A stretch of 64,000 nucleotides of DNA from Bacteroidota bacterium. Its GTDB lineage: Bacteria; Bacteroidota; Bacteroidia; NS11-12g; UBA955. Made by a program: the position numbers and the translations under genes. Position 1 is the first letter of the stretch. Each line of letters starts with the position of its first letter. The notes under the pieces were generated by a model. It was not told where the DNA came from. It searched no databases and was given only the letters and a program-made list of their open reading frames with translations. The stretch spans positions 51,887-115,886 of the forward strand of contig JAEUUL010000022.1 of NCBI GenBank assembly GCA_016787485.1, written 5' to 3'. This document shows, one piece after another, positions 1-34,954 of the stretch.

Positions 1-35
1 AAAAATTCAAAGAATTGTTCACCCATAATATTTTT

Positions 36-2852
36 TTATTTGCTCTGCCTTAACATACTTTTTGTAGCTTTAGCCAACAAACCACTCGTATACTTCTCAT
101 ACAACCCAAACAAATACTCTATCCGTTCGCGTTCATCTGCAAAGGGTTCTTTGCGGTAGCATTTGTCCACGGCTTTGTCCAGGGTTTGGTGGGCTTTGAG
201 CAGGTCTGGCGGCATGGTGAGGGGATTGTACAGGGTGGCCAGGCTGCTGCCGGGGTATTTGGCGCGGGTGTCCAGCACACCCTGTGCAGCTTCCTCAACC
301 GCCTTTTTCTGGGCATCGGTGGGGTTTTCCGGCCAGGGAAAATTATAATAAACCGAAGGCGAATAACTAAAATCACTTTTCATTTTTCCGCCTACTGTAT
401 ATGCCCATCTAACGTGCATTTTAGATTGTAGTACACCGAAAATAAACACATTTGCTCCGGGTATAATTTGCAGTTTATTGCTACAAATGACATCTTTTGA
501 TAAATATCCAATGGGAATATAATCTCTATTTTCTGAACTAACCTCCGGTACAGCGAGATATTCGCTAATGGGCTGTCTATCTTGAGTAAACAATGAAGGT
601 AATTTAGAATATCTTCTAACACTTGCAGTAGGACTGCTATTTCGAAATTCAGTCACTTTTTTAAGCCTTTCCTTTAGAACCCCATTTTTCAATAATAATT
701 CAGATGGAGCTTCCTTTAGCCAAAAACAATATCGATATTTATTATTAATAAATTCGTATGCACCGATATATTTTTTAATAAATGGGATAAGTTCAGGTTC
801 TGTTTGTGAAATAAAGTCGTAATCATCTTTTTCAAGAATTAAATGCCCACCATCAGTAGGCTGGCTCCCTTTAAACATCTCCGGCAATCCATGCAAAGGT
901 TTCGATCTGCTAGAAAGTAAAATATCATTTGAAGCAACTAAATAACTATTTATATTACTAGTAGGTATTTCAATTGGATTATTATTAATTGAATCATATA
1001 TAAATAGCCTAGAACTTTCTGTACGAAGAGCAGTAAAACCAATTATGACAACATGCACAGCCGCATTTCCGCGCGCTTCATTCGACCATTTAAAAGTTTG
1101 ATGAGCAAAATAAATATGACATTTATATTTATTAAAAACATCTGAATACATAATTGGCACTTGCTCCCCTTGAACAATGCTATTTGTGCTAACAAATCCA
1201 ACTTTAGTTAAACCATATAAATTTATATATTGGGCAGCTTTTCTATACCACGCAGCAACAAAATCTAATCTCCCAGCACGTTTTGAATCATTAAAAACAA
1301 AGTGCATATCATTTTGTTGTTCTTCATTTCTCCATTGATGTCCCAAAAACGGCGGATTCCCCATTATATAATCAAACACCTGTTCTCTCTTTTGCCAGGG
1401 AATGGGGTCTATCAGGCTTTGCCAGTCTGTGCGCAGGGCATTGGCATGTACAATGCGTGGCCTGCTGCGCAAGGGAAGGCGGGCAAAATACTGGCCAAAC
1501 ATGTCACTCACCCGCAGATTCATCTGGTGGTCCATGAGCCAAAGGGCAACCTGCGCTATCTGACTGGGGAATTCCTCTATCTCTATGCCATAGAATTGTG
1601 CCACATCGCAACGGATAAAATTGCTTACAGGCACATTCGCATAGCCAGCACTGTTTCCATCCTTTATGCTAAACTGGTCATTCAGTTGCTGTTTTATCAC
1701 TTCCAGTTCCAGCAACCGCAACTCCCGGTAGCTCACAATGAGAAAATTACCGCAACCGCAGGCCGGGTCAAGAAATCGCAGTTCACTGATTTTGTCATGA
1801 AATTTGTTCATGGCACTGCTGCGTTGCCCCTTGTTCTTGTAAGCTTTTATTGCTTCAAACTCAGCCCACAACTCATCCAGAAACAGGGGTTTAATGAGTT
1901 TGAGGATATTCTTTTCACTGGTGTAATGGGCACCCAGGTTGCGGCGCTTTTCTTTGTCCATCACACTCTGAAACAGGCTGCCGAAAATGGCGGGTGAAAT
2001 GCGGCTCCAGTCAAGGCTGCAACATTCCAGCAACTGTTCGCGCATTTTGCGGTCAAATGCGGCCGGTGGCAGGGTTTCTTCAAACAGCTTGCCATTTACA
2101 TAGGCAAAGGCATTGAGTTGTTCATCCAGATTTGTCAGACGCTTTGCCGGGTCTGTGTTCAGCACATAAAACAATTCGGCCAGTTTGGACCCCAGATCGC
2201 TTCCGTCTGTCGCGGTGCGGTCTTCTATGTACGACTGAAACTGGTATTTCTCAAAAATGTTGCTGTCTTCAGCAAACAGGCAGAACAGCAGACGCACAAG
2301 GTACACTTCCAGGGCATGTCCCTCGTATCCGGTAGCCAGCATGGCATCGTGCAGCTTGCCCATCAACTCAGCCGCTTCTATGTTGGCGGGGTCCTGCTCT
2401 TTGTATTGTGTCTGTTCGTACCCGGCAATGAACTTAAACAGATCTACCTTTTCGGGCAGTTCTGCCAACATAATTTCGTGGCTGCTGTCATGGTCCAGAT
2501 CGTACAGGCGCATGCGGGCAAAATCGCTGACGATGATGTAGCGTGGATATTCGGCAGCTTTGAGGCCGGTGAAGTAGTCGGCAGCCTGATCGTAGGCGCG
2601 GTCCAGGTTTTTGCCTTTGCTTTTATGTTCCACCACCAGTTTGCCGGGCCAGAACAGGTCTATATAACCCTGTTTGTCGTTCAGTTTCTTTACAAACTTC
2701 TCAAACATGGCCACCTGCCGGCGTTCCTGCCCGAACACGCGGAAAAAGCCATCCCAGAAGCTTTTGGCTTCGGCGTCTTCATCATAGGCATCGGCCCATT
2801 CACTGGCAAAGACAGCGGCGCGGGTGCGGATTTCGTTGAGGGAGAGGGGCAT
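36..2852 (-). CDS. Type IIG/IIL single-polypeptide restriction-modification enzyme, MmeI family (N-terminal PD-(D/E)xK nuclease + N6-adenine DNA methyltransferase + target recognition domain)
   Basis: The 938 aa length is close to MmeI (919 aa). The N-terminus (MPLSLNEIRTRA...FWDGFFRVFG...IDLFWPGKLVVEHKSKGKNLDRAYDQAADYF) follows the MmeI N-terminal nuclease pattern (D...EXK). SAM-binding motif I is LDPACGCGNFL and catalytic motif IV is MGNPPFLG (NPPF/Y of amino-methyltransferases). Confidence 0.9.
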   Translation of the reverse strand: MPLSLNEIRTRAAVFASEWADAYDEDAEAKSFWDGFFRVFGQERRQVAMFEKFVKKLNDKQGYIDLFWPGKLVVEHKSKGKNLDRAYDQAADYFTGLKAAEYPRYIIVSDFARMRLYDLDHDSSHEIMLAELPEKVDLFKFIAGYEQTQYKEQDPANIEAAELMGKLHDAMLATGYEGHALEVYLVRLLFCLFAEDSNIFEKYQFQSYIEDRTATDGSDLGSKLAELFYVLNTDPAKRLTNLDEQLNAFAYVNGKLFEETLPPAAFDRKMREQLLECCSLDWSRISPAIFGSLFQSVMDKEKRRNLGAHYTSEKNILKLIKPLFLDELWAEFEAIKAYKNKGQRSSAMNKFHDKISELRFLDPACGCGNFLIVSYRELRLLELEVIKQQLNDQFSIKDGNSAGYANVPVSNFIRCDVAQFYGIEIEEFPSQIAQVALWLMDHQMNLRVSDMFGQYFARLPLRSRPRIVHANALRTDWQSLIDPIPWQKREQVFDYIMGNPPFLGHQWRNEEQQNDMHFVFNDSKRAGRLDFVAAWYRKAAQYINLYGLTKVGFVSTNSIVQGEQVPIMYSDVFNKYKCHIYFAHQTFKWSNEARGNAAVHVVIIGFTALRTESSRLFIYDSINNNPIEIPTSNINSYLVASNDILLSSRSKPLHGLPEMFKGSQPTDGGHLILEKDDYDFISQTEPELIPFIKKYIGAYEFINNKYRYCFWLKEAPSELLLKNGVLKERLKKVTEFRNSSPTASVRRYSKLPSLFTQDRQPISEYLAVPEVSSENRDYIPIGYLSKDVICSNKLQIIPGANVFIFGVLQSKMHVRWAYTVGGKMKSDFSYSPSVYYNFPWPENPTDAQKKAVEEAAQGVLDTRAKYPGSSLATLYNPLTMPPDLLKAHQTLDKAVDKCYRKEPFADERERIEYLFGLYEKYTSGLLAKATKSMLRQSK

Positions 2853-2880
2853 TGGGGTTGCAATTTACACAAGCTCGTTG

Positions 2881-2923
2881 TTGATTTTTGTCCCGTCTGC
2901 TATACACTCATAGATTAAATTTG
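2881..2923 (+). promoter_or_regulatory. Putative Bacteroidota-type promoter for the 2939 cassette (TTG ... TAAATTTG, a TAnnTTTG-like -7 element at 2916..2923)
   Basis: TAnnTTTG match taaatttg about 15-20 nt upstream of ATG 2939, with TTG elements at 2881-2890. It lies in the divergent intergenic region between the MmeI-like gene and the cassette. Confidence 0.35.
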
Positions 2924-2938
2924 CTTTTATGAGGCGTA

Positions 2939-3445
2939 ATGTTGCAAATTTGCATAAAGATGAATCCTGAAATAGGCACAACAATTACAAATCAGGAATC
3001 TGGATTTGACCAGATCATAGATCAAGTTGTGGCATATGTGAAAGGCGAGGAACTGGAAATTTCCTCTGGTGTAGCCCCAAGGCATAAGCAAGAGATTTGG
3101 GAACAGTTGTTTAAAGGCAACTTGTTGCCCATGCTAAAATTGCAGCAAAATCAGAACAATGAAGTTTTGGGAGCACAGTTGGCCATTGGCTTTCTAAGGA
3201 GGCTCGTACTAGAATACAAGACAACTCCCCAAAAACTAGCCCTTAGTCAGAAAAACAATAAGGTATATGTATGGGCAGAAATTCAGGATGATGATGAAGC
3301 TTCAATGGATGCTATTCTGGCAGCTACAATAGACACCAACTTTGAGCATCGGGACAGTGGACTTACATTGTCTCCAATGATTGTTGAGCAACGAGAAATG
3401 ATTCCTGTACCTCCGCATTACAAGCTTCTGACCAATTATGCCTGA
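2939..3445 (+). CDS. Hypothetical protein (168 aa; an alternative start at 2960 gives MNPEIG...), first gene of a 2-gene cassette
   Basis: Intact ORF in AT-rich DNA, divergent from the RM gene. Its stop overlaps the start of the next ORF (ATGCCTGA, 8-nt overlap), implying translational coupling. I recognised no conserved motif. Confidence 0.5.
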   Translation: MLQICIKMNPEIGTTITNQESGFDQIIDQVVAYVKGEELEISSGVAPRHKQEIWEQLFKGNLLPMLKLQQNQNNEVLGAQLAIGFLRRLVLEYKTTPQKLALSQKNNKVYVWAEIQDDDEASMDAILAATIDTNFEHRDSGLTLSPMIVEQREMIPVPPHYKLLTNYA

Positions 3446-3914
3446 TTCTTCTTCGCACTTTCGACAGGCTGAAAGAAATCTTAAGGTCGTTGAAGTGCTG
3501 AATTCCAGCCCAGAACATTATTGGGATTGGCAGGTTACAGCCCTGTTTTACTCTGCATTGCATCTGATTAATGGCCACATCATGGAAACCGACGGAGGTT
3601 TTTACAATACACATGCCTCAGTGCAATCGATTATATATTTCAACAATACTGGCAGCAAGGCCAAACTGCCACGTGAGGTAGGTGTTGCATACGAAAAGTT
3701 GCAATTGCTTTCGCGCAAAGCGAGATATTTATATGATCCTGAGGGTAGAAACCTAGGAAATCCGCAATTTGTTGGTGCAGATGGATTTGAAAAAGCAGTT
3801 TATGCATATGAGATTGTTTGTAAGTATATTACCCAGACATATAATGTAAAAGTAGACAGCATCAATATTAGCTGCTTAAAGGCTGGCTGGGAAAAAAGAT
3901 CCCTGCCACTCTGA
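3438..3914 (+). CDS. Hypothetical protein with HEPN-like N-terminal helices (158 aa), second gene of the cassette
   Basis: Residues FRQAERNLKVVEVLNSS...WDWQVTALFYSALHLINGH resemble the first two helices of HEPN domains (A..L..A..L....Y..A..YyA.H...). I found no clean Rx4-6H motif (the nearest is SRKARYLYD). It overlaps the preceding ORF by 8 nt. Confidence 0.45.
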   Translation: MPDSSSHFRQAERNLKVVEVLNSSPEHYWDWQVTALFYSALHLINGHIMETDGGFYNTHASVQSIIYFNNTGSKAKLPREVGVAYEKLQLLSRKARYLYDPEGRNLGNPQFVGADGFEKAVYAYEIVCKYITQTYNVKVDSINISCLKAGWEKRSLPL

Positions 3915-4007
3915 AAACAATAATTTATCAGCATAATAAAAATCGAAAACTCGCCCTGGTTTACTTTTTTGGAAGCGAGTCTTATATTAGATATTTGATA
4001 AATTTTA

Positions 4008-4673
4008 TCAATAAAACAAGAAGCCTAAAACAAGTATTGTTCCTAAGCAACCGTAAAGCAAAGTATTATTAATATCACGTGGTGAAGATCCAGGTACATA
4101 TTCTTTTCTCTCTGTGACTTTAGCCTCTATCAGTTCTAAATCTATATTCTTATAAATTTTTCTTGAATTAATTTCTGCAGCCAATAAAAGTTTAATTTTC
4201 TCTCCTGGCTTCGGAAAAGAATCAGCACTTTGTGACTCTGTTAAATATAAATCCAATACGTCAATATTGCTTGATCTTTTTATATTGCAGTTAGGGAAAA
4301 TAGACTCTGAAAAAGTGCTATTTGCAGGTATTACAGCATTTGGTTTACTTCTGGTTGCATCAATTAATAGGGTCTGTCCACTTGAAAACGAGGTAGCATT
4401 GCCGTAAATTACCATTGAAGAGGAATTCCAAATTAGTTCAATTGGTGATTCTGAAATGTTTCTAAATATACAGTCTAAACTTGATTTACCTACAGAAAAC
4501 TTAACGGTCAATTCGGAATCTCGGTATTCCAAATTTGTGCTAATTGAATCATTAGCTCTAATCCCCCAGGTGTATTTACAGGAAAATACAGTCTTATACT
4601 TTGGCTTTAATGCTGCGCATCCTGTCAAATAAATTGAAATAAGCAAAATGATGGGTGTAAAACAATTCTTCAT
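4008..4673 (-). CDS. Lipoprotein (lipobox LTGC) with C-terminal hydrophobic anchor, function unknown
   Basis: Signal peptide MKNCFTPIILLISIYLTGC; Ser/Asn-rich body; C-terminal LLYGCLGTILVLGFLFY; AT-rich codon usage like the neighbouring cassette. Confidence 0.55.
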   Translation of the reverse strand: MKNCFTPIILLISIYLTGCAALKPKYKTVFSCKYTWGIRANDSISTNLEYRDSELTVKFSVGKSSLDCIFRNISESPIELIWNSSSMVIYGNATSFSSGQTLLIDATRSKPNAVIPANSTFSESIFPNCNIKRSSNIDVLDLYLTESQSADSFPKPGEKIKLLLAAEINSRKIYKNIDLELIEAKVTERKEYVPGSSPRDINNTLLYGCLGTILVLGFLFY

Positions 4674-4726
4674 ATCATGAATATATTTGATTCACTAATG
4701 ACTGGTCAAATATAACGATTATCATA

Positions 4727-4760
4727 AATAATAAAAGGAGGCCATTAAGACCTCCTTTTT
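4727..4760. terminator. Bidirectional rho-independent terminator (aaaGGAGGccattaagaCCTCCttttt)
   Basis: GGAGG/CCTCC stem flanked by an A-run and a T-run, lying between the lipoprotein start and the nrdJ stop. Confidence 0.5.
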
Positions 4761-4781
4761 ATAAATTCACATGATTGTATG

Positions 4782-7700
4782 TTAACTACATCCCAGACTG
4801 TTTCCACAGTTCAGGCATTTGTAGCAGGTGCCGCTGCGCACAGTGATGTGTCCGCACACGTTGCAGGCAGGGGCATCGCTTTGTACCTCACGCAGGTGGT
4901 CCTGCATGTTCTTCACTCCGCCACCGGTTTCCAGCATCGCTTCTTTTGACTCTATCACCGGAACGGGGTTGTTAAATACAGGGATGAACTCACTCACCAC
5001 CGGCGCTTCCTGCGCATCGGGGCTGGTAAACTCGCTGGGTTTCACCTGCACCAGGTCTTCGCGGTTCAGGTATTCAAAGCCAAGCAGGCGGAAGATATAA
5101 TCAACAATAGAGGTAGAATTCTTGATATTCGGGTGACCTTCCACCATGCCGCTGGGCTCGAAGCGGGTAAAGGCGAACTTGTCTACAAACTCTTCCAGGG
5201 GCACACCATACTGCAGGCCTACGGATACAGCAATGCTGAAACAGTTGACCAGAGAACGGAAGCTGGCGCCTTCCTTGTGCATATCTATAAAGATTTCACC
5301 CAGGGTACCGTCATCGTACTCACCGGTGCGCACAAAGATGGTTTGTCCGCCCACCTTGCCTTTTTGCGTAAAGCCTTTGCGCTTGTTGGGCAGGCGTTTC
5401 TTCTCTACAATGTTCGAAAGCTGGCGTTTGAATTTGGTGTCAGGGCTTTCATTCAGGATGCGCTTGGCGGCTTCCAGCACAATCTCCGGGGTCAGCTCTT
5501 CTGCAAAGCGGATCACCTTACCTTCCGTACCGGCTACTGCATCTGATTTGGCTTCTGCTTTCTCGTCTGCTTCTGCGGTTTCAGATTTATTGCTCAGGGG
5601 CTGGCTCAGTTTGCAACCATCGCGGTACAGGGCATTGGCTTTCAGGCCCAGTTTCCAGCTCAGCTCATAGCAGGCTTTGATATCGTCTACAGTGGCTTCG
5701 TTGGGCAGGTTGATGGTTTTACTGATGGCACCTGAAATAAAGGGCTGTGCAGCAGCCATCATACGGATGTGGGCAAAGGGGTGGATGTAGCGCACGCCAA
5801 TGTTTCCGCACTTGTTGGCGCAGTCAAATACAGGGTAGTGCTCCTCTTTCAGATGGGGTGCCCCTTCAATGGTCATGGTGCCTGCTACAAATACGTTGGC
5901 CTCATTGATTTCGGCTTTGCTGAATCCCAGCGCTTCCAGCATATTGAAACGGGGGTCGTTGTACTGCTCTGCAGTGAATCCTATGCGCTGCAGGCACTCC
6001 TCGCCCAGTGTGTATTTGTTGAACACAAAACCGATTTCGAATGCCATTGGGGCTTCGGATTCCAGTTTTTCCAGGTCTGCCTCGTTAAATCCTTTGGCCC
6101 GCAATGATTCGTGGTTGATATGCGGTGCACCGGCAAATGTTTGGTGACCTTTTGCATAGTTTACGATTTCATCCACTTCCTCCGGAGTGTAGCCCAGGTT
6201 TTTCAGTGCAACCGGAACGGTGTTGTTTACAATTTTAAAATATCCTCCACCACTGAGTTTCTTGTATTTCACCAGGGCAAAATCGGGTTCAATACCGGTG
6301 GTATCACAATCCATGAGCAGACCAATGGTTCCGGTTGGTGCAATCACGGTTGACTGTGCATTGCGATAGCCGTAGCGTTCACCCCACTGCAGGGCGCGAT
6401 CCCAGGCATTGCAGGCACTCTTCAGCAGATAATCAGGGCAGTATTTCTCATCAATGCAAACAGGTTTGATTCCCAACCCTTCAAACGCCAGCGGAGTGTT
6501 GTATGCCGCATAGCGGTGGTTGCGGATAACCCGCATCATGTGTTTCTTGTTCTTTTCATACATGCGGAACGGGCCTTTTACAGCTGCCATTTCTGCACTT
6601 GTAGCATAAGCAACACCTGTAAGAATGGCGGTAACCGAGCCACAAATGGCGCTGGCCTCTTTGCTGTCGTAGGGTATACCAGCACTCATCAGCACAGAAC
6701 CCAGATTGGCGTAACCCAGACCCAGTGTACGATAGTCGTAGCTGAGCTGTGCCACTTCCTTGCTGGGGAACTGGGCCATAAGCACAGAGATTTCAAGAAC
6801 AGTGGTCCACAGACGGCTGGCGTATTCCAGAGAGTTCACATCAAAGGTGCGTTCATCTTCACTGAAGAATTTGCGCAGATTGAGTGATGCCAGATTGCAG
6901 GCAGTATTGTCCAGGAACATATACTCACTGCAGGGGTTGCTGGCATTGATGCGGCCACCTTCAGGGCAGGTATGCCATTCGTTGATGGTATCATCATACT
7001 GCATTCCGGGGTCGGCACAGGCCCATGCCGCTTCACCAATGGCATCCCATACTTCCTGTGCAGGCATGGTATGCATTACTTTTCCGGTACTGCGGGCAGT
7101 AAATTCCCAATCCTGGTTGTTCTTCAGTTTGTCGAAAAACCGGTTGGATACACGGATAGAGTTGTTGCTGTTCTGTCCGGATACCGTGTTATAGGCTTCA
7201 CCTTCGTAATCGTTGCTGTATCCGGCTTTAATAAGGGCAGCCACCTTAGCTTCTTCCCCTTGTTTCCATTTGATAAACTCCAAGGCCTCGGGGTGATCCA
7301 GATCCAGACACACCATTTTGGCTGCACGGCGTGTGGTTCCGCCGCTTTTGATAGCTCCGGCAGCACGGTCACCTATTTTAAGGAAACTCATCAGGCCGCT
7401 GCTTGTTCCCCCACCACTCAGTTTTTCTCCTGCACCACGTATACGTGAGAAGTTTGTACCCACACCAGAGCCGTACTTGAAAATACGGGCTTCACGCACC
7501 CACAAATCCATGATACCGCCTTCGTTGACCAGATCATCGTCTACAGACAGGATAAAGCAGGCATGGGGTTGCGGACGTTCGTAGGCAGATGTGCTTTTGG
7601 TGAGTTTTTCAGTCTCAGGATCCACGTAGTAGTGACCCTGAGGTTTGCCTGCAATGGCATAGCTGCTGTGCAGACCTGTGTTGAACCACTGCGGGCTGTT

Positions 7701-8102
7701 GGGCGCCGCTTCCTGGTTCAGCATGGAATAGACCAACTCATCATAGAACACCTGTGCATCCGTGCTGCTGGCGAAGTACCCATACTTTTCCCCCCATTGA
7801 CGCCAGCAGTTGGCCAAACGGTGTACCACCTGTTTTGCAGATGTTTCACTCCCCAGTGAACCATCTGCCTGCGGTACGCCGGCTTTACGGAAATATTTCT
7901 GCGCCATGATATCTGTAGCCACCTGGCTCCAGCCTTGTGGTACTTCCACATTGCGCATTTCAAACACTACGCTGCCATCCGGTTTTTTAATGACCGAACT
8001 GCGCATGTCGTAAACAAATTGATCAAAGGGACTAACGCCTTCTTTGGTGTTCTGCCTTTTAAATTCAAGGCCGTTGGGGTTGAGGGTAAATTCTTGACTC
8101 AT
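4782..8102 (-). CDS. nrdJ: Adenosylcobalamin-dependent ribonucleotide reductase, class II (long form with C-terminal Zn ribbon)
   Basis: 1106 aa; RNR active-site signature [23 protein letters not shown]; C-terminal CNVCGH...CYKCLNCG zinc ribbon typical of NrdJ. Confidence 0.9.
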
Positions 8103-29190: not shown

Positions 29191-30709
29191 GCCCCACTGG
29201 TGGTTCTGGGTCACCTGGCTCTTGCTCTGCAGTTCTCTCGGGTTCTGGAAAAATCTGCAAAAACCGCCCTACAGCATGCATCAGGGAGCACAGGCCGACC
29301 GCGCTTGTGTTGCCTGGAATTATTACCATGAAAGCATGAATTTCTTCCTGCCCCGGGTCATGGAATCACGTGCCTGGGATGGAATTGCAGGGATGGAATT
29401 CCCGGCACTGCCATACACATCTGCCCTTTTGTACAAAATTTTCGGATTTCACGATGGTATCTACAGGGCAGTGATGTGGTTCATCGTCTCATTCGGTGTT
29501 TATGCAGCCTGGCTTATTACCGGATTCTTTGTCCGGAGAAATCTGAACAGACTGTTGCTGGTATATGGCTGGTACCTTTCACCGGTTCTGGTATTTTATA
29601 CCCCCAATTTTCTCCCAGACCCGGCTGCTTTGTCTTTTTCCATGCTTGCCTGGTATTTCTTTTTCAGGTTCTATTTTCAAATTCAAATCCGAAAATCACT
29701 CTGGCTTTATACCTTATTTATATCGCTGGCGGGACTTATTAAAGTGTCATTTCTAATCACACATTTTGCCATTTTCGGATTGTGTGTACTGCCTCTCATT
29801 CCGCGTTTGAAATTGCCCCTTTCCGTACCGGTAAAGCCACGCCATGTGTTGTGGTTCATTGTTCCCCTCGCATGTGTGGGAAGCTGGTATTCATACAGTG
29901 CTGCACTCACACGTAAAACCTGGAATGTTCATTTTCTGCAACAACCCAATCCTGCAAAAAGCTGGGCACAGCTGACAGACAATACTGCCTATGCTTTTAA
30001 CACGTGGTACGACAGCATATATGCCGGTTATTTGCTGTATTTCGTCATCGCTTTTATTCTTATCACCATTGTCATTCATTACCGTAAAAACCCGCTGATA
30101 GCTGCCATTTCAGGGTTTCTCTTTCTGGGGTTTGCAGCAGCCTTTATTTTATTCAATACACAGTTCAGATACCACGATTATTATTTCATCCTTTTGTTTC
30201 CATTTTTATTTTTCGGATTGTTACTTATGCAGCAAACATTTGTGGAAAACCGCACCGTCTTTATCGGGCTGGTGCCCATCATTCTCATGCTTGGATTTTA
30301 TTATTTTCCTATTCGCAATTTTTTCCATTCCCGCCACATGCAGGATAGGAAATACGGTGAAAATGATTACTACAATCAGGCATTGATACATAATTATTCC
30401 GCATATGATTCCATGGCAATGTATTTGAATAAAAACATTCCTGCAAACAGCCGGATTATGCTGGCTTTTGACCCATCACCCAACACCGGATTGTATTTAC
30501 TGCAGCGCAAAGGGGTAAGAATTGCAACGGATTTTCCTGCGGAATTGGCTCAGTCCATTGCGGCTGAACATCATATAAAATATGTCGTCATCAACGATTC
30601 AGCCCTGTGGAATAAAAATTTCACAAAAGTATTTGGTTCAATTCCGAGAATACGACAACAGTATAACAATCTGTACCTGCTGGAATATGCTGAAATAGAA
30701 AAGCAATAA
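29177..30709 (+). CDS. GT-C fold polytopic membrane protein (putative ArnT/PMT-like glycosyltransferase)
   Basis: More than 10 TM helices; it overlaps the GT2 gene by 14 nt, the classic ArnC+ArnT-type pairing. Confidence 0.45.
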   Translation: MMKLKPHWWFWVTWLLLCSSLGFWKNLQKPPYSMHQGAQADRACVAWNYYHESMNFFLPRVMESRAWDGIAGMEFPALPYTSALLYKIFGFHDGIYRAVMWFIVSFGVYAAWLITGFFVRRNLNRLLLVYGWYLSPVLVFYTPNFLPDPAALSFSMLAWYFFFRFYFQIQIRKSLWLYTLFISLAGLIKVSFLITHFAIFGLCVLPLIPRLKLPLSVPVKPRHVLWFIVPLACVGSWYSYSAALTRKTWNVHFLQQPNPAKSWAQLTDNTAYAFNTWYDSIYAGYLLYFVIAFILITIVIHYRKNPLIAAISGFLFLGFAAAFILFNTQFRYHDYYFILLFPFLFFGLLLMQQTFVENRTVFIGLVPIILMLGFYYFPIRNFFHSRHMQDRKYGENDYYNQALIHNYSAYDSMAMYLNKNIPANSRIMLAFDPSPNTGLYLLQRKGVRIATDFPAELAQSIAAEHHIKYVVINDSALWNKNFTKVFGSIPRIRQQYNNLYLLEYAEIEKQ

Positions 30710-30781
30710 CCTACCGGTTCAATTGTAAGATTCTATCCCGGGATTTGAAATTCCAGAGATTCAGTTTAATTTTGAATTTGC

Positions 30782-33700
30782 ATGAAACGACACTTACTTT
30801 GTATAGCTTCTGTACTATTTGCCATAACGGCTTCTGTTTCCGGACAATCCAGAGGATTTGTTGCCAACTCAGGACAGATTGAAGACCAGGATGGGAAACC
30901 CAACCTTAAAGTCCGGTATCAGTATGCCTCTGCAGGTGCAAACATTTCCCTTGTACCGGGTGGGTTTGAATACCACCTGTACGAGGCAGTATTTGAAAAG
31001 GATTTTAAAATGCCCGGCTTTTCAGACCCTGAAAAAAAACAGCCGGCTCCGCCACAAATGAGCTACCACCGCATTGAGGCACAATTCATCAATAGCAATC
31101 CTGCTGCCCGGTATATTCCGCAGGATGCCATCCCGGTGTGGTACAATTATTACACGGGCAACACACCAGAATCCGGCGTTACAGTCCATTCCACCAAAAA
31201 GGTATTATTGCAAAATATTTACAACGGAATTGATATTCTATTTTCGGCAGACAATGGATTTAAATATGACATCATTGTTCATCCCGGTGGCCGTTTGCAG
31301 GATGTGGAACTGAGATATTCGGGTGCTGACGGATTGAAAATTGCGGCGAACGGCGCGCTGATATTACAAAATTCCATCCGTGAAATATCCGAGACAATTC
31401 CTGCCAGTTTTTTAATTCATCCCGAACAAAAAACTCAAACCCCTGCAGAGGTAAGCTACCACTTGAATCCGCAAACAAATACGGTCACCTTTGCCACTAC
31501 ACCCTATGACCCGTCCATGGAACTTGTGGTGGATCCCTGGGCCACCTATTACGGAGGAAATGACATTGAATACGGAGAACGGGTTGGACTGGACCCTGCC
31601 GGCAATGTCTATTTCAGTGGGTTAACCCTGTCCATTGCAAGCATAGCCACCACAGGGGCTTACCAAACCACACGGGGTGGAGACTGGGATGCATTTGTGG
31701 CGAAATTCAGCAAATCGGGTTCCATCATTTGGGGTACCTATTTTGGTGGCAGCACACTGGAATACAATTATAGCCTGGGGGTTGATTCCACCGGAAAAAG
31801 GGTGGCCATCTGCGGCCATACCCAATCCACCTCGGCCATAGCCAGTTCCGGCGCACACCAGACCAGTCTGTCCGGCACAGGCACCTGGGATGCCTTCATT
31901 GCTGTGTTTAATGACAGTGGCAAACGACAGTGGAGTACCTATCTTGGCGGGACAAGCAATGATTACGGGAACTCCCTGTGTTTTGATGGTGCAGGCAATG
32001 TCATTGCTTCGGGGTATACTTCCTCCTCTTCGGGTTTTCCAACATCGGGCGCACACCAGAGCACAAATGCAGGATCTTTTGACATGTTTTTATCAAAATT
32101 CAACAGCAGCGGAGTATTGCAATGGGGTACATTTATCGGTGGCACTCAAACCGAAATCGTACTAAACAGTGTATGCGACTATAACCGGGATATTCTCCTG
32201 GTTGGCTACTCAGCATCCTCCACGGGTATCGCGACTTCCGGTGTCCACCAAAGTGGAATTGCCGGATCGGGAAGCACAGATGCCATTCTGATTAAATTTA
32301 ATACGAACGGGCAACGTTTGTGGGGCACCTATTATGGCGGTACAGGTGGTGAGATGGGTCTGGGAATCAGCCTTGACAAAAAGAGCAACATCCTGTTGTG
32401 CGGATCCACTGGTTCCACAAGCAATATAGCCACCAACGGGTCCCACCAGATTTTAACGGGTGGATCAAATGATGCATTTCTGGTAAAATTCAATAAAAAC
32501 GGAACCCGCCAATGGGGCACATACTATGGCGGCAGCAGCAATGAGGAATTCTATGGCACAGGGGCTGATTCCGCTGGCAACGTGTATGCGGGAGGAATGT
32601 CCTACTCTACTTCCGGCATTGCCACAACCGGTGCTTACCAAACCACAAATGCAGGCGCAGAGGATGGCGTGATTGTGAAATTCACAGATTCCGGTAAACG
32701 GGTTTGGGCTACCTATTTTGGCGGCACTTCTACAGACAGGATTTATGGAATGGACGTAAATCCAAACGGTGATGTTTTAATTGGAGGATACACGGGCTCC
32801 AACTCCGGAATCGCTACCACCGGCGCACACCAAACAACCAAAGGCGTTGGCGAAGATGGTTTTCTGGCTTTGTTCAACGGAAAAGGCAGCCTGAATTCAT
32901 TGGACAACAATACCATCAGCGGCAATACGGAAGTCTGTTACAACCAGTCACCCGGGAAATTGACCGGCAGCACACCCACCGGGGGCACGGGCAGCTATAC
33001 CTACAAATGGATGGTGTCCACAACCTCCGCCACATCCGGATTCAGCACCGCCTCAGGCACCAGCAACCAAAGCGATTATACACCGGGTGCACTCACCCAG
33101 ACCACCTGGTACAAGCGGGTTGTAACCTCCGGCAGCCAGAATGATACAAGCTCCGCCCTGCGTATTTCAATTCAAACGGTTTCTGCCGGTTTCAGCATCA
33201 ATGACACCAGCCAGTGTGAGGGCGCAAATCAGTTTGTTTTTACCAATTCCAGCACCACAAATACAGGAGGAATAAAAATCTACAACTGGAAATTCGGAAC
33301 CGACACTTCTACTGCAAAATCCCCGGTCAAATCATTTACTACCGTGGGTAAAACTTCGGTCAAACTGCTGGTTGTAAGCTCAGGTAACTGCAAAGATTCG
33401 GTGACCAAAAACATTTACATCGATCCGGATCCGCAGGCATCATTTAAAATCAATAACAATACCCAGTGTTTGCCCGGGAATCAGTTCAATTTTACCGGAA
33501 CAAGTACCCTGAGTACAGGCACCATAATGCAGACCCAATGGGATTTTGGGGATGGCAGCACACAATCGGTGGCGAACCCGGCAAAATCCTATGCCAATGC
33601 AGGAAGTTTTTCAGTCTCACTGGTGGTTACATCCGATAAAGGATGCACAGATACAGCACGAAATTCCGTAACGGTGAAAAAGAATGCCACAGCAGATTTT

Positions 33701-34954
33701 ACAATCAATTCCGATGCACAATGTCTGGCGCAAAACAATTTTATTTTTACCGATGCAAGCAAAAACAATGGTGAAACCATCAGCCTGAGAACCTGGCATA
33801 CCGGCGACGGGAACCAATCCAACAGCCAGAATCCATCTTACTCCTATTCGGCGCCTGGCAACTACAAGGTAAAACTAATTGTGCGCACATCTTATGGCTG
33901 CCAGGATTCCCTTGTAAAAAATGTAAATGTGTATGCCATGCCAACCGTAAAACCCCGGGTAAATGAAAAAACACAGTGTTTTACCAATCACCAGTTTGAA
34001 TTTACAGACAGCAGCACCGTACAAAACGGCACACTTTTCAAACGGACCTGGTATGTGGACGATGGAACCAAATCCACATTTTTGAAATGGAACAAATCGT
34101 TCACTTCTGTTGGAATACACAAAGTAAAACTCGTGGTAGAATCCAATTATGGTTGTTCTGATTCCGGCGAATTACAAATTCGTGCGGTGCCGGATGCCAT
34201 TGCTAAAATCGGGCTAACTGCAGTAAACACCTGTCTGGGGAACAATCTGTTCCAACTGGCAGACAACAGCACCATCACCGGAGGCAGCATTGCAAAACGC
34301 CGCTGGGATTTTGGCGACGGCACATCCGCCACACAGAAAAACACATCCAAAACCTACGGCAATGCAGGTACTTATACAGCGCGACTGGTGGTGGAATCAG
34401 ACCAGGGATGCAAAGACAGTGCTGAGGAGGAAATAACGGTATATCCCGGCCCCACCGTGGGAAACATCAGTGGCTTGTTTCAGAATTTAAATGCAGGTAC
34501 CCCGTATTTTTATATCATTACCAGCCAGCCCAACACTACCTATACCTGGAAAACAATTAACGGAACATTGCTGTCAGGCCAGGGAACTTCCACAGCCAGT
34601 ATCAGTTGGACTGCCATGGGGGCCGGCAGCGTATCCGTTGTGGCTTCACAATCCAATGGCTGCAAGGATTCAACCCAGAAACTTGTGGAAATTACAGGTA
34701 TGTCCGGGATAAAATCAACCGGGAAACATTCAACAGAAATATATCCCAACCCTGCAGATGATTTCATTTATATCAATCCGTCCAATGCAGAACTCATGCT
34801 GGTTTATTCCTCAGGCGGACAGCTCATATACAGGGGGAATCCACTGAAAATATACAACACAAGGGATATTAGGGATGGTGTATACCAGTTGATACTGATG
34901 TATAATTCCGGCAAAACAGAAAGTGGGAAATTTATTGTTTCCCATCACAAATAA
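30782..34954 (+). CDS. Large T9SS-secreted protein with SBBP beta-propeller repeats and PKD domains, Por C-terminal sorting domain
   Basis: Repeated ...GNVYxxGxTxS...IATTGAYQT...DAFVAKF (SBBP); several WDFGDG PKD units; C-terminus IYPNPADDFIYIN...GVYQLIL (T9SS CTD). Confidence 0.8.
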   Translation: MKRHLLCIASVLFAITASVSGQSRGFVANSGQIEDQDGKPNLKVRYQYASAGANISLVPGGFEYHLYEAVFEKDFKMPGFSDPEKKQPAPPQMSYHRIEAQFINSNPAARYIPQDAIPVWYNYYTGNTPESGVTVHSTKKVLLQNIYNGIDILFSADNGFKYDIIVHPGGRLQDVELRYSGADGLKIAANGALILQNSIREISETIPASFLIHPEQKTQTPAEVSYHLNPQTNTVTFATTPYDPSMELVVDPWATYYGGNDIEYGERVGLDPAGNVYFSGLTLSIASIATTGAYQTTRGGDWDAFVAKFSKSGSIIWGTYFGGSTLEYNYSLGVDSTGKRVAICGHTQSTSAIASSGAHQTSLSGTGTWDAFIAVFNDSGKRQWSTYLGGTSNDYGNSLCFDGAGNVIASGYTSSSSGFPTSGAHQSTNAGSFDMFLSKFNSSGVLQWGTFIGGTQTEIVLNSVCDYNRDILLVGYSASSTGIATSGVHQSGIAGSGSTDAILIKFNTNGQRLWGTYYGGTGGEMGLGISLDKKSNILLCGSTGSTSNIATNGSHQILTGGSNDAFLVKFNKNGTRQWGTYYGGSSNEEFYGTGADSAGNVYAGGMSYSTSGIATTGAYQTTNAGAEDGVIVKFTDSGKRVWATYFGGTSTDRIYGMDVNPNGDVLIGGYTGSNSGIATTGAHQTTKGVGEDGFLALFNGKGSLNSLDNNTISGNTEVCYNQSPGKLTGSTPTGGTGSYTYKWMVSTTSATSGFSTASGTSNQSDYTPGALTQTTWYKRVVTSGSQNDTSSALRISIQTVSAGFSINDTSQCEGANQFVFTNSSTTNTGGIKIYNWKFGTDTSTAKSPVKSFTTVGKTSVKLLVVSSGNCKDSVTKNIYIDPDPQASFKINNNTQCLPGNQFNFTGTSTLSTGTIMQTQWDFGDGSTQSVANPAKSYANAGSFSVSLVVTSDKGCTDTARNSVTVKKNATADFTINSDAQCLAQNNFIFTDASKNNGETISLRTWHTGDGNQSNSQNPSYSYSAPGNYKVKLIVRTSYGCQDSLVKNVNVYAMPTVKPRVNEKTQCFTNHQFEFTDSSTVQNGTLFKRTWYVDDGTKSTFLKWNKSFTSVGIHKVKLVVESNYGCSDSGELQIRAVPDAIAKIGLTAVNTCLGNNLFQLADNSTITGGSIAKRRWDFGDGTSATQKNTSKTYGNAGTYTARLVVESDQGCKDSAEEEITVYPGPTVGNISGLFQNLNAGTPYFYIITSQPNTTYTWKTINGTLLSGQGTSTASISWTAMGAGSVSVVASQSNGCKDSTQKLVEITGMSGIKSTGKHSTEIYPNPADDFIYINPSNAELMLVYSSGGQLIYRGNPLKIYNTRDIRDGVYQLILMYNSGKTESGKFIVSHHK

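What the first reader, a model, noticed from the sequence alone, without database searches (positions are those of the whole stretch)
1..4780. Small defence island beside nrdJ: MmeI-family RM enzyme plus an AT-rich cassette of unknown genes
A stand-alone type IIG/IIL MmeI-like restriction-modification enzyme sits at the window edge. By eye the adjacent 2853..4780 (two coupled small ORFs and a lipoprotein) is much more AT-rich than the flanking core genes (roughly 35% versus 50-55% GC). RM genes are hallmark anchors of defence islands, and unknown genes embedded next to them are enriched for novel anti-phage functions. Because the window starts at position 1, the island may extend further left.
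Basis: partly seen in the sequence, partly recalled or inferred. Interest (0 to 1): 0.7.

Follow-up and report, generated by a model that had tools for sequence, protein, structure and literature searches.

The report
MmeI enzyme, HEPN gene pair, orphan lipoprotein
Next to the nrdJ gene lie an intact MmeI-type restriction enzyme whose DNA-recognition segment has been swapped, a conserved but unannotated two-gene HEPN module that looks like a toxin-antitoxin or abortive-infection system, and one orphan AT-rich lipoprotein gene; this is a modest defence cluster, not a freshly imported island.

Summary

**MmeI gene (36..2852, minus strand).** It is a complete MmeI-family enzyme with all five Pfam domains. 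It aligns end to end with MmeI itself (PDB 5hr4).

**Composition.** Only the lipoprotein gene (33% GC) is strongly AT-rich. The two coupled ORFs are 41% GC against a window mean of 47%, which is not exceptional.

A 1-kb block inside the MmeI gene (339..1343) has third-codon-position GC (GC3) of 0.20, against 0.61 in the rest of the gene. In that block, identity to the closest allele falls from about 90% to 30-60%. This is a swapped recognition-domain cassette, a process already described for this family.

**The two ORFs.** They form a coherent two-gene module:
- orfA is an acidic partner with no recognisable fold.
- The pair is unannotated, and orfB has about 1,345 representative relatives.
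- It stays paired down to 29% identity, occurs on phages and beside integrases, and lies next to nrdJ in three lineages.

It is most likely a toxin-antitoxin or abortive-infection module; this is untested.

**The lipoprotein.** It is an orphan sitting in a variable slot.

The parts
36..2852 (-). MmeI-family Type IIL/IIG restriction-modification enzyme, 938 aa, apparently intact
   Evidence: All five Pfam MmeI domains are present. PADLOC REase_MTase_IIG scores 1167 bits. The protein aligns full-length with MmeI, PDB 5hr4, at E=1e-297. The nuclease motif D..EHK (aa 65-76), methyltransferase motif I DPACGCGNF (aa 362) and motif IV NPPF (aa 499) are all present.
339..1343 (-). Exchanged block inside the MmeI gene (codons 504-838). 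It covers the second half of the methyltransferase domain and the whole target-recognition domain.
   Evidence: GC3 is 0.197 inside the block and 0.612 outside; 2*deltaLL is 157 against a permutation maximum of 17. Identity to the closest allele (L016) is 85-98% in aa 1-490 and 80-96% in aa 830-938, but 30-64% within the block. The block's best relatives reach only 58-59% identity and come from other phyla.
2853..2959 (.). Divergent intergenic region between MmeI and orfA. It contains a perfect 12-nt palindrome, TGCAAATTTGCA, at 2943..2954, 5 nt before the orfA start codon.
   Evidence: The palindrome occurs once in the window. It is the only conserved element upstream of orfA in five other genomic contexts. 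Its function as operator or promoter element is inferred.
2960..3445 (+). orfA, 161 aa from the ATG at 2960 (an upstream in-frame ATG at 2939 lies inside the palindrome region). It is acidic (pI 4.8) and is the partner of orfB, a putative antitoxin or regulator.
3438..3914 (+). orfB, 158 aa, a HEPN-fold protein of the AF0298-like HEPN-T type and the putative RNase toxin or effector. It overlaps orfA by 8 nt.
3961..4781 (.). Variable slot between the conserved end of the orfAB module and the nrdJ stop codon.
   Evidence: Alignment with relative L001 stops at 3960 and resumes at 4782. The same slot holds 3.5 kb of different AT-rich genes in L001 and only a 243-bp spacer in L008.
4008..4673 (-). 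Orphan lipoprotein gene, 221 aa, 33% GC.
   Evidence: The N-terminus MKNCFTPIILLISIYLTGC carries a lipobox, and there is a C-terminal hydrophobic helix. Only one other homologue exists among 5.8 billion proteins: 62% identity, on a 1-kb contig. No family matches.
4733..4759 (-). Terminator-like hairpin just downstream of nrdJ: an 11-bp stem followed by a T-rich tail.
4782..8102 (-). nrdJ, class II B12-dependent ribonucleotide reductase; the conserved core flank.
   Evidence: It is 90% and 80% identical at protein level in the syntenic relatives.

Best explanation
The region holds three unrelated pieces of accessory DNA of different ages, lying beside the core gene nrdJ.

1. **MmeI-family enzyme.** This is a single-chain Type IIL restriction-modification enzyme and is probably active: the nuclease motif and both methyltransferase motifs are intact. 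Its central block was replaced by homologous recombination with a different, low-GC allele. The block covers the second half of the methyltransferase domain and the recognition domain (codons 504-838). The conserved N- and C-terminal parts of the gene served as the homology arms. The swap presumably changed the DNA sequence the enzyme recognises (inferred).

2. **orfA-orfB.** This is a self-contained two-gene module.
- orfB is a HEPN-fold protein of the AF0298-like type. It lacks the canonical Rx4-6H motif.
- It keeps the basic residue at the end of helix 3 (R96, followed by invariant Y97), an invariant histidine (H59) in the insert between helices 2 and 3, and an acidic residue (D30) in helix 2.
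- I infer that orfB is a metal-independent RNase. I also infer that the acidic upstream partner orfA holds it in check, as in a toxin-antitoxin or abortive-infection system, and that the conserved palindrome in front of orfA is its operator or promoter.
- The module has been resident next to nrdJ for a long time.

3. **Lipoprotein gene.** This is recent, lineage-specific AT-rich cargo in a variable slot. Its function is unknown, and nothing ties it to defence.

Shown here: gene identities, folds, the mosaic structure, synteny and co-occurrence. Inferred: enzymatic activity, toxicity, neutralisation by orfA and any anti-phage effect.
For: **MmeI identity and intact motifs:**

**Mosaic structure:**
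- The GC3 change-point is at codons 504-838.
- Identity to the L016 allele is 91% and 89% in the arms and 47% in the block.
- The block's nearest relatives (58-59%) are in Lentisphaeria and Mucilaginibacter.
- Relatives L001 and L015 keep only in-frame N-terminal plus C-terminal remnants, with different deletion end points.
- Natural recognition-domain exchange in this family was already proposed by Morgan and Luyten 2009 (PMC2731914).

**orfB fold and conservation:**
- Of 117 relatives, 31 hit PF05168 colinearly over the whole profile.
- Conservation counts out of 117: H59 117, Y97 117, R96 116, N14 115, H42 115, D30 111.
- These positions match the published description of the alternative active site of AF0298-like HEPN-T and AbiV (PMC3710099).

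**Module behaviour:**
- Start and stop codons overlap or abut.
- Partners are acidic (pI 4.8-5.2) and the HEPN proteins neutral to basic (pI 6.6-9.3).
- An orfA homologue lies upstream of orfB homologues down to 29% identity, in 12 independent contexts.
- The pair is present in Microcystis phage Mea-Yong924-1 next to its integrase, and on an IMG/VR contig next to an XRE-type repressor.
- It also occurs in a tape-measure/primase context, next to HipBA and next to an integrase.
- The palindrome is conserved across contexts.

**Long residence:** synteny with nrdJ in three lineages, and GC that tracks the host.

**Lipoprotein:**
Against: - No experiment exists on any member of the orfA or orfB families. 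Database names are all 'hypothetical protein'.
- orfB lacks the canonical Rx4-6H motif, so it could be catalytically inactive.
- orfB itself does not reach any Pfam HEPN model. The sequence link runs through relatives, several of which score below the curated cut-off.
- The orfA model is only moderately confident, so its interaction with orfB is inferred from gene order and co-occurrence alone.
- Stable vertical inheritance next to nrdJ, and occurrence among metabolic genes (L012, L113), would also fit a housekeeping or regulatory role.
- L016 shows the same low-GC3 block. The swap is therefore a feature of this allele group, and its direction and date in the window's lineage are not resolved.
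Confidence: 0.6

Rival explanations
1. orfA-orfB is not a conflict system. It is a resident regulatory or stress module in which a catalytically inactive HEPN domain binds a nucleotide or RNA, as proposed for MtlR and human sacsin. On this reading the locus is simply MmeI plus ordinary accessory genes.
For: - There is no Rx4-6H motif.
- The pair is inherited with nrdJ across three lineages, at rates like the core gene pcrB.
- Its GC is ameliorated to each host.
- Several copies lie among metabolic genes.
- There is no PADLOC hit.
- PMC3710099 notes non-catalytic HEPN domains.
Against: - The constellation of invariant polar residues (H59, R96, Y97, N14, H42, D30) matches the alternative active site proposed for AF0298-like HEPN-T and AbiV.
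- The pair is carried by phages and viral contigs, and sits beside integrases, HipBA and restriction-enzyme genes.
- It occupies at least five unrelated genomic positions, so it is mobile.
Confidence: 0.22
2. MmeI, orfA and orfB form one functional three-gene system. The HEPN protein acts as a back-up suicide RNase triggered when restriction fails, as suggested in general terms for HEPN genes embedded in restriction-modification operons.
For: - MmeI and orfA are transcribed divergently from a shared 107-bp spacer.
- The adjacency recurs in three lineages: the window, L001 and L015.
- PMC3710099 reports clustering of HEPN-T genes with restriction-modification operons.
Against: - In L001 and L015 the MmeI gene is reduced to an 82-127-aa stub, while orfA and orfB stay intact.
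- L004, L008, L012, L096, L111, L112, L113 and L116 have the pair without any MmeI.
- None of 80 MmeI loci from other genomes has the pair within 10 kb.
Confidence: 0.08
3. The whole of 1..4780 is one recently acquired genomic island. The unknown genes, including the lipoprotein, would be novel anti-phage genes.
For: - The region contains a restriction-modification gene and a HEPN module.
- The lipoprotein gene is strongly AT-rich and lineage-specific.
- The slot is variable between relatives.
Against: - Composition is heterogeneous: 51%, 33%, 49%, 41% and 33% GC in successive pieces.
- orfAB and the MmeI arms are shared with relatives at the same position.
- The window part has no integrase, tRNA or flanking repeats.
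- The cargo in the same slot in L001 is secreted proteins and lipoproteins with no defence hits.
Confidence: 0.1

Closest known systems
MmeI (Methylophilus methylotrophus; PDB 5hr4) and the Type IIL MmeI family
   Same: Same five-domain, single-chain architecture and the same length class. The alignment is end to end at E=1e-297. The D..ExK nuclease motif and the DPACGCGNF and NPPF methyltransferase motifs are conserved.
   Different: The recognition-domain block is only 30-60% identical even to the closest allele, so the recognition sequence is unknown and probably differs. The block also has a sharply different codon composition from the rest of the gene.
Natural recognition-domain exchange between MmeI homologues (Microcystis aeruginosa PCC7806 IPF4888/IPF5080; Morgan and Luyten 2009, PMC2731914)
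   Same: Alleles are nearly identical outside the recognition-domain region and divergent inside it. The conserved flanks act as recombination arms.
   Different: Here the alleles sit in different genomes and genomic contexts, not as paralogues in one strain. The exchange is also marked by a GC3 step from 0.61 to 0.20. Relatives show a further outcome: deletion of everything between the arms.
AF0298-like HEPN-T proteins (Pfam PF05168; PDB 2hsb, 1ufb, 1wol)
   Different: orfB is about 30 residues longer and has a C-terminal beta-hairpin. It does not reach the PF05168 model itself. It is paired with orfA instead of a minimal nucleotidyltransferase.
HepT-MntA (HEPN-MNT) type VII toxin-antitoxin systems
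   Different: - There is no RX4HXY motif.
- Neutralisation by AMPylation is therefore not supported.
AbiV (HEPN abortive-infection protein; PDB 9bj5)
   Same: It is a HEPN protein lacking the canonical histidine, with the same alternative histidine position according to PMC3710099. It has been reported as an RNase in an anti-phage system (bioRxiv 10.1101/2024.05.05.592566, abstract seen).

Membership tests
MmeI family (Type IIL/IIG restriction-modification enzymes) | Five-domain architecture: N-terminal nuclease, helical spacer, gamma-class N6-adenine methyltransferase, target-recognition domain and C-terminal domain, all in one chain | tested here: met
   All five Pfam MmeI domains match at E from 1e-24 to 1e-89, in the expected order. 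The alignment to MmeI (5hr4) is full-length.
MmeI family (Type IIL/IIG restriction-modification enzymes) | Catalytic motifs: PD-(D/E)XK nuclease, methyltransferase motif I (DPACG..) and motif IV (NPPF) | tested here: met
   DLFWPGKLVVEHK aligns with MmeI's DLFWPGILLIEMK. DPACGCGNF is at aa 362 and NPPF at aa 499.
MmeI family (Type IIL/IIG restriction-modification enzymes) | Cleavage about 20/18 nt from an asymmetric site, with single-strand adenine methylation for host protection | not testable with these tools
   Needs enzyme assays or methylome data.
HEPN superfamily (orfB) | Four-helix up-and-down bundle with the HEPN topology | tested here: met
   [not shown]
HEPN superfamily (orfB) | Canonical Rx4-6H motif at the end of helix 3 | tested here: not met
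   The sequence there is S92-R93-K-A-R96-Y97-L-Y-D100. No histidine lies within 4-6 residues of either arginine, in orfB or in the 117-sequence alignment.
AF0298-like HEPN-T subfamily (PF05168) | Basic residue retained at the end of helix 3, a conserved histidine in the insert between helices 2 and 3, and an acidic residue in helix 2 (as described in PMC3710099) | tested here: met
   Counts out of 117: R96 116, H59 117 (the model places it at the start of the short helix 59-66, between helices 2 and 3), D30 111.
AF0298-like HEPN-T subfamily (PF05168) | Match to the Pfam HEPN model above the curated cut-off | tested here: not met
   orfB itself has no match at E up to 0.1. Of 117 distant relatives, 31 match, with a best E of 2.4e-6. 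In a sample of ten, the four matches scored 14-20 bits against a cut-off of 22.
HEPN-MNT (type VII) toxin-antitoxin | The partner is a minimal nucleotidyltransferase (Pfam NTP_transf_2; G-S ... DxD catalytic motif) | tested here: not met
   [not shown]
Generic two-gene toxin-antitoxin module | Two small, translationally coupled genes; an acidic and a basic partner; strict co-occurrence; patchy distribution linked to mobile elements | tested here: met
   The genes overlap by 8 nt. pI is 4.8 against 7.8, and the pattern holds in five other pairs. Co-occurrence holds in 12 contexts. The pair occurs in phage and integrase contexts.
Generic two-gene toxin-antitoxin module | Toxicity of one component, neutralised by the other | not testable with these tools
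   Needs expression experiments.
Known anti-phage systems (PADLOC-DB v2.0.0) for orfA, orfB and the lipoprotein | Match to any model of a known or candidate defence protein | tested here: not met
   There are no hits except a chance-level Cas6 match for orfA at E=0.037.
Recently acquired genomic island (whole of 1..4780) | Uniformly deviant composition, absence from close relatives between conserved neighbours, and mobility signatures (integrase, tRNA, flanking repeats) | tested here: not met
   Composition is a patchwork. orfAB and the MmeI arms are present at the same site in relatives. There is no tRNA, no flanking repeats and no integrase in the window part. Only 3961..4781 behaves as a presence/absence segment. 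The left boundary could not be examined.

The most novel reading that the evidence does not exclude
orfA-orfB is the founding example of an undescribed, widespread anti-phage (abortive-infection or superinfection-exclusion) system, frequently carried by temperate phages. In this reading a HEPN-T RNase uses the non-canonical histidine/arginine/tyrosine site, and a new acidic alpha/beta antitoxin with no recognisable fold relatives restrains it. That would make it a non-nucleotidyltransferase solution to controlling HEPN-T toxins.
Probability: 0.3. Interest if true: 0.6.

Novelty: new variant of a known kind. Interest (0 to 1): 0.42.

Why it matters
**The HEPN pair.** HEPN-T proteins of the AF0298 type are abundant. 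They lack the canonical catalytic motif, and as far as the sources read here show, the alternative active site proposed for them in 2013 remains a prediction for this type.
- This module is a compact, well-conserved family. orfB has about 1,345 representative relatives at 50% clustering, all unannotated.
- Its candidate residues are invariant: H59, R96 and Y97.
- Its partner is not a nucleotidyltransferase.
- It is therefore a clean system for testing whether such HEPN domains are RNases, and how they are controlled without AMPylation.
- Its presence on phages beside integrase and repressor genes makes a role in phage-host conflict directly testable.

**The MmeI gene.** It gives a clear natural example of exchange of the recognition-domain cassette, and of deletion between the same conserved arms. 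This is relevant to how restriction specificities diversify and to engineering this enzyme family. The principle itself is already known.

Tried and rejected
**Retrieving the sequence left of the window.**
- Exact-protein look-ups for orfB and MmeI found nothing.
- The genome collection does not hold this metagenome-assembled genome; the best MmeI match there is 74% identical.
- The left boundary therefore stays open.

**Sequence and profile searches.**
- Pfam, NCBIfam, PADLOC and PHROGs gave nothing for orfA, orfB or the lipoprotein.
- Profile searches of the orfA and orfB families against PDB sequences gave only chance-level hits: a macrodomain, PCNA, LsrG and LicT.

**Other searches that led nowhere.**
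- The AlphaFold-database Foldseek library was unavailable.
- A search of metagenome contigs with the broad orfB alignment failed for lack of a conserved stretch. The narrower alignment worked.
- No orfB relative exists in the plasmid collection.
- Flanking repeats around the lipoprotein gene are only short chance matches.
- Rfam gave nothing.
- The genes downstream of the MmeI stubs in L001 and L015 are unrelated to each other.
- The variable genes of L001 and L008 have no defence hits, apart from a patatin-like phospholipase in L008 and a sub-threshold Mrr_cat match in L001.
- The short (about 120 aa) HEPN relatives in L107 and L109 have a different upstream partner, not detectably related to orfA.
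- The window holds no second MmeI paralogue that could have donated the block.

Full report
**What is there.**

The first 8.1 kb of the window hold five genes:
- a 938-aa ORF at 36..2852 (minus strand);
- two overlapping ORFs on the plus strand, which I call orfA and orfB. orfA runs 2960..3445, with an alternative in-frame start at 2939. orfB runs 3438..3914;
- a 221-aa ORF at 4008..4673 (minus strand);
- nrdJ at 4782..8102 (minus strand).

The orfA, orfB and lipoprotein products match NCBI entries from a metagenome-assembled 'Bacteroidetes bacterium', locus tags JNL57_06950 to JNL57_06960, on a 272,750-bp contig.

**The restriction enzyme.**

- The 938-aa protein has all five Pfam MmeI domains in order.
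- It scores 1167 bits against the PADLOC Type IIG model.
- It aligns over residues 1-925 with MmeI itself (PDB 5hr4, E=1e-297).
- The nuclease motif is conserved: DLFWPGKLVVEHK against MmeI's DLFWPGILLIEMK.
- Methyltransferase motif I (DPACGCGNF, aa 362) and motif IV (NPPF, aa 499) are conserved.

The gene is therefore complete and probably active.

**Composition.**

Window GC is 47.2%. Background 500-bp windows average 47.4% with sd 3.1%.

| Segment | GC | Comment |
|---|---|---|
| nrdJ | 51.2% | core flank |
| orfA | 41.2% | z about -1.6; 6% of background windows as low |
| orfB | 41.5% | as orfA |
| Lipoprotein gene | 33.0% | z about -5; no background window as low |
| Spacers flanking the lipoprotein gene | 26-27% | |

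So 'roughly 35%' holds only for the lipoprotein gene and its flanks.

Window 400..1400 is 33% GC, between flanks of 49-51%.

**The MmeI gene is a mosaic.**

- A two-breakpoint likelihood scan of third codon positions puts the block at codons 504-838 (window 339..1343).
- GC3 is 0.197 inside and 0.612 outside. 2*deltaLL is 157, against a maximum of 17 in 100 permutations.
- The block starts five codons after NPPF and ends eight codons before the MmeI_C domain. It covers the second half of the methyltransferase domain and the whole recognition domain.
- The closest allele found (L016, a Bacteroidia genome, in a different genomic context) is 85-98% identical in 50-residue windows over aa 1-490 and 80-96% over aa 830-938. 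Inside the block it is only 30-64% identical.
- Taken as separate queries, the arms are 91% and 89% identical to L016 and the block 47%. The block's best matches, at 58-59%, are in a Lentisphaeria genome and a Mucilaginibacter genome.
- L016 shows the same GC3 step (arms 0.5-0.6, block 0.22-0.26) in a 36% GC genome. Low-GC recognition cassettes between conserved arms are thus a property of this allele group, and I cannot say when or in which direction the exchange occurred.
- Morgan and Luyten (2009, PMC2731914) already proposed natural exchange of the recognition-domain region in this family. They cite two Microcystis homologues that are 98.5% identical outside it. This is a clean new example of a known process.

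**Relatives show the same arms used for deletion.**

- In L001-L003, whose nrdJ protein is 90% identical to the window's, blastn aligns window 2695..3960 at 70% identity. That stretch covers the MmeI 5' end, the spacer, orfA and orfB.
- It also aligns window 73..192 (the MmeI 3' end) at 87.5%. Only about 48 bp lie between the two aligned pieces.
- The resulting 127-aa ORF still hits MmeI_N and MmeI_C.
- L015 carries a different stub, aa 1-50 fused to aa 906-927, again directly beside orfA.
- MmeI plus the pair therefore existed as neighbours in at least three lineages. MmeI was lost twice by internal deletion, while orfA and orfB remained intact.
- None of 80 MmeI loci from other genomes has orfA, orfB or nrdJ within 10 kb.

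**orfB is a HEPN protein.**

- It has no hit in Pfam, NCBIfam, PADLOC or PHROGs.
- Word-indexed homology search finds only 14 clusters.
- A profile search of 1.84 billion representatives finds 1,345 proteins at E up to 1e-3 and 196 at E up to 1e-10. Those listed are nearly all about 160 aa, apart from fragments.
- Those I looked up are all named 'hypothetical protein'.
- The AlphaFold model is confident (pLDDT 88.9, pTM 0.86). It shows four long helices, a short helix in the insert between helices 2 and 3, and a C-terminal hairpin.
- Of 117 distant family members, 31 match Pfam HEPN PF05168 (best E 2.4e-6). The matches are colinear over almost the whole profile.
- The canonical Rx4-6H motif is absent.
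- Across the 117 sequences (22-37% identical to orfB apart from the five close homologues), these residues are conserved: W31, Y38, H59 and Y97 in all 117; R96 in 116; N14 and H42 in 115; S92 and T34 in 113; D30 in 111.
- Anantharaman et al. (2013, PMC3710099) describe exactly this arrangement for AF0298-like HEPN-T proteins and AbiV. The motif lies at the end of helix 3 with the histidine missing and the basic residue kept. A strongly conserved alternative histidine comes from the insert between helices 2 and 3, and an acidic residue sits in helix 2. They suggest it forms an alternative RNase site.
- In orfB these correspond to R96 (end of helix 79-95), H59 (start of helix 59-66) and D30 (start of helix 29-52). 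This is an inference from sequence position and predicted secondary structure. I could not measure distances in the model.

**orfA is its constant partner, and it is not a nucleotidyltransferase.**

- orfA has no family match.
- Only 18 clusters of close relatives exist, on the same contigs as the orfB relatives.
- The model is moderate (pLDDT 76). The N-terminal 65 residues are poor, but the C-terminal alpha/beta domain is confident.
- The alignment contains no G-S...DxD motif.
- An orfA homologue lies immediately upstream of every 160-aa-class orfB homologue I examined, with start and stop codons overlapping or 1-6 nt apart:
  - L096: 32% identity, E=5e-22;
  - L103 and L104;
  - L111, L112, L113 and L116: profile E from 3e-9 to 3e-22.
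- The partners are always acidic (pI 4.8-5.2) and the HEPN proteins neutral to basic (pI 6.6-9.3).
- Shorter, more distant HEPN relatives (about 120 aa; L107, L109) have a different abutting partner.

**Where the pair lives.**

- Next to nrdJ:
  - the window;
  - L001-L003;
  - L008-L011 and L099-L100, where the nrdJ protein is 80% identical, there is no MmeI and no lipoprotein, and 243 bp separate orfB from nrdJ.
- Between a peptidase gene and a large CHU_C protein gene in L012-L014. In L004-L007 the same site has HipBA and other genes inserted beside it.
- Beside a tyrosine integrase in L015.
- In Microcystis phage Mea-Yong924-1 and its relative, directly beside the phage integrase.
- On an IMG/VR viral contig beside an XRE-type repressor.
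- In a tape-measure/primase context (L116).
- Among metabolic genes, with a Type I restriction gene 6 kb away (L113).

The pair's GC follows the host in every case: 31-46%, which is 0-9 points below the local background. Its divergence between the nrdJ-linked lineages (68-73% identity) is comparable to that of pcrB (53-62%).

The pair is therefore mobile over long times but an old resident here.

**A conserved palindrome.**

TGCAAATTTGCA at 2943..2954 lies 5 nt before the orfA start codon. It occurs once in the window. It is the only conserved element upstream of orfA in L001, L004, L008, L012 and L015, whose upstream regions are otherwise unrelated. It could be an operator, part of a Bacteroidota-type promoter, or both. 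This is untested.

**The lipoprotein and its slot.**

- The ORF has a lipoprotein signal (…YLTGC) and a C-terminal hydrophobic helix.
- It has one homologue in 5.8 billion proteins (62% identity, on a 1-kb contig) and no family match.
- Conservation with L001 ends at 3960 and resumes at the nrdJ stop codon.
- In L001 the same slot holds 3.5 kb: a small HTH gene and five genes of 31-33% GC. All five start with signal or lipoprotein signal peptides, and none has a defence or Pfam hit.
- In L008 the slot is empty.
- The window has no flanking repeats and no tRNA.

So 3961..4781 is a variable slot that takes up AT-rich genes for surface or secreted proteins. Nothing ties the window's lipoprotein to defence.

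**Overall reading.**

The locus is a small cluster of conflict-type genes, a restriction enzyme and a HEPN module, plus unrelated cargo. The pieces differ in age:
- the HEPN pair is old;
- the MmeI gene is old at this site but recombining;
- the lipoprotein is recent.

The most useful lead is the orfA-orfB module. It is an unannotated, widespread, partly phage-borne variant of HEPN toxin-antitoxin or abortive-infection systems. It has a non-canonical active-site pattern and a partner of unknown fold. Its activity, toxicity and any anti-phage role remain to be shown.

Whether the cluster continues to the left of the window could not be determined. In relative L001 the variable region continues about 4 kb further, through three unknown genes and a YefM/YoeB pair to metH. 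metH is not present in the window's 64 kb.

Noticed in passing
window 2943..2954: A perfect 12-nt palindrome, TGCAAATTTGCA, lies 5 nt upstream of the orfA start codon. It is unique in the window and is the only conserved upstream element in five other genomic contexts of the module. A related sequence (TGTAAATTGCA on the minus strand, window about 2860..2870) lies just upstream of the MmeI start.
   Followed up: partly
L001 9035..9418 and L015 9166..9414: Two relatives keep in-frame stubs of the MmeI gene with different end points: 127 aa from aa 1-55 plus 884-927, and 82 aa from aa 1-50 plus 906-927. This points to independent internal deletions between the conserved arms. I did not check whether the stubs are expressed or whether microhomology marks the junctions.
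   Followed up: partly
L016 10001..12829: The closest MmeI allele sits in a 36% GC Bacteroidia genome, in an unrelated context. Its arms have GC3 of 0.5-0.6, above what a 36% GC genome would suggest, and its block has GC3 of about 0.24. The arms are 79% identical to the window's at nucleotide level. This suggests horizontal movement of the whole gene as well as of the cassette.
   Followed up: partly
L001 10580..14048: The slot between orfB and nrdJ in this relative carries a small HTH gene and five AT-rich (31-33% GC) genes. All five have signal or lipoprotein signal peptides and none has a family match. It looks like a lineage-specific surface-protein cassette.
   Followed up: partly
L001 7894..9045: A 383-aa membrane protein gene directly downstream of the MmeI stub has a sub-threshold Mrr_cat restriction-endonuclease match (E=0.002) in its C-terminal part. 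It is unrelated to the gene at the equivalent place in L015.
   Followed up: partly
L004 7732..9255; L001 5035..5543; L008 6296..7081: Other conflict-type genes lie near the module in relatives: a HipBA-type three-gene set directly upstream of orfA, a YefM/YoeB pair 4 kb away, and a patatin-like phospholipase that matches PADLOC effector models (E=9e-10).
   Followed up: partly
L107 5650..6360 and L109 5662..6375: In high-GC genomes, shorter (119-124 aa) relatives of orfB are paired with an abutting 112-116-aa upstream protein. That protein has no detectable similarity to orfA and no family match. It may be a second, distinct partner family for this HEPN clade.
   Followed up: partly
window 4733..4759: A strong terminator-like hairpin (11-bp stem, A-run before and T-run after) lies 23 nt downstream of nrdJ. 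It separates nrdJ from the lipoprotein gene, which has its own promoter-like site at 4709..4680.
   Followed up: no
window 30001..31000: This is the only other 1-kb window below 41% GC outside the studied region (40.1%). It lies at the start of a 1390-aa ORF (30782..34954). I did not examine it.
   Followed up: no
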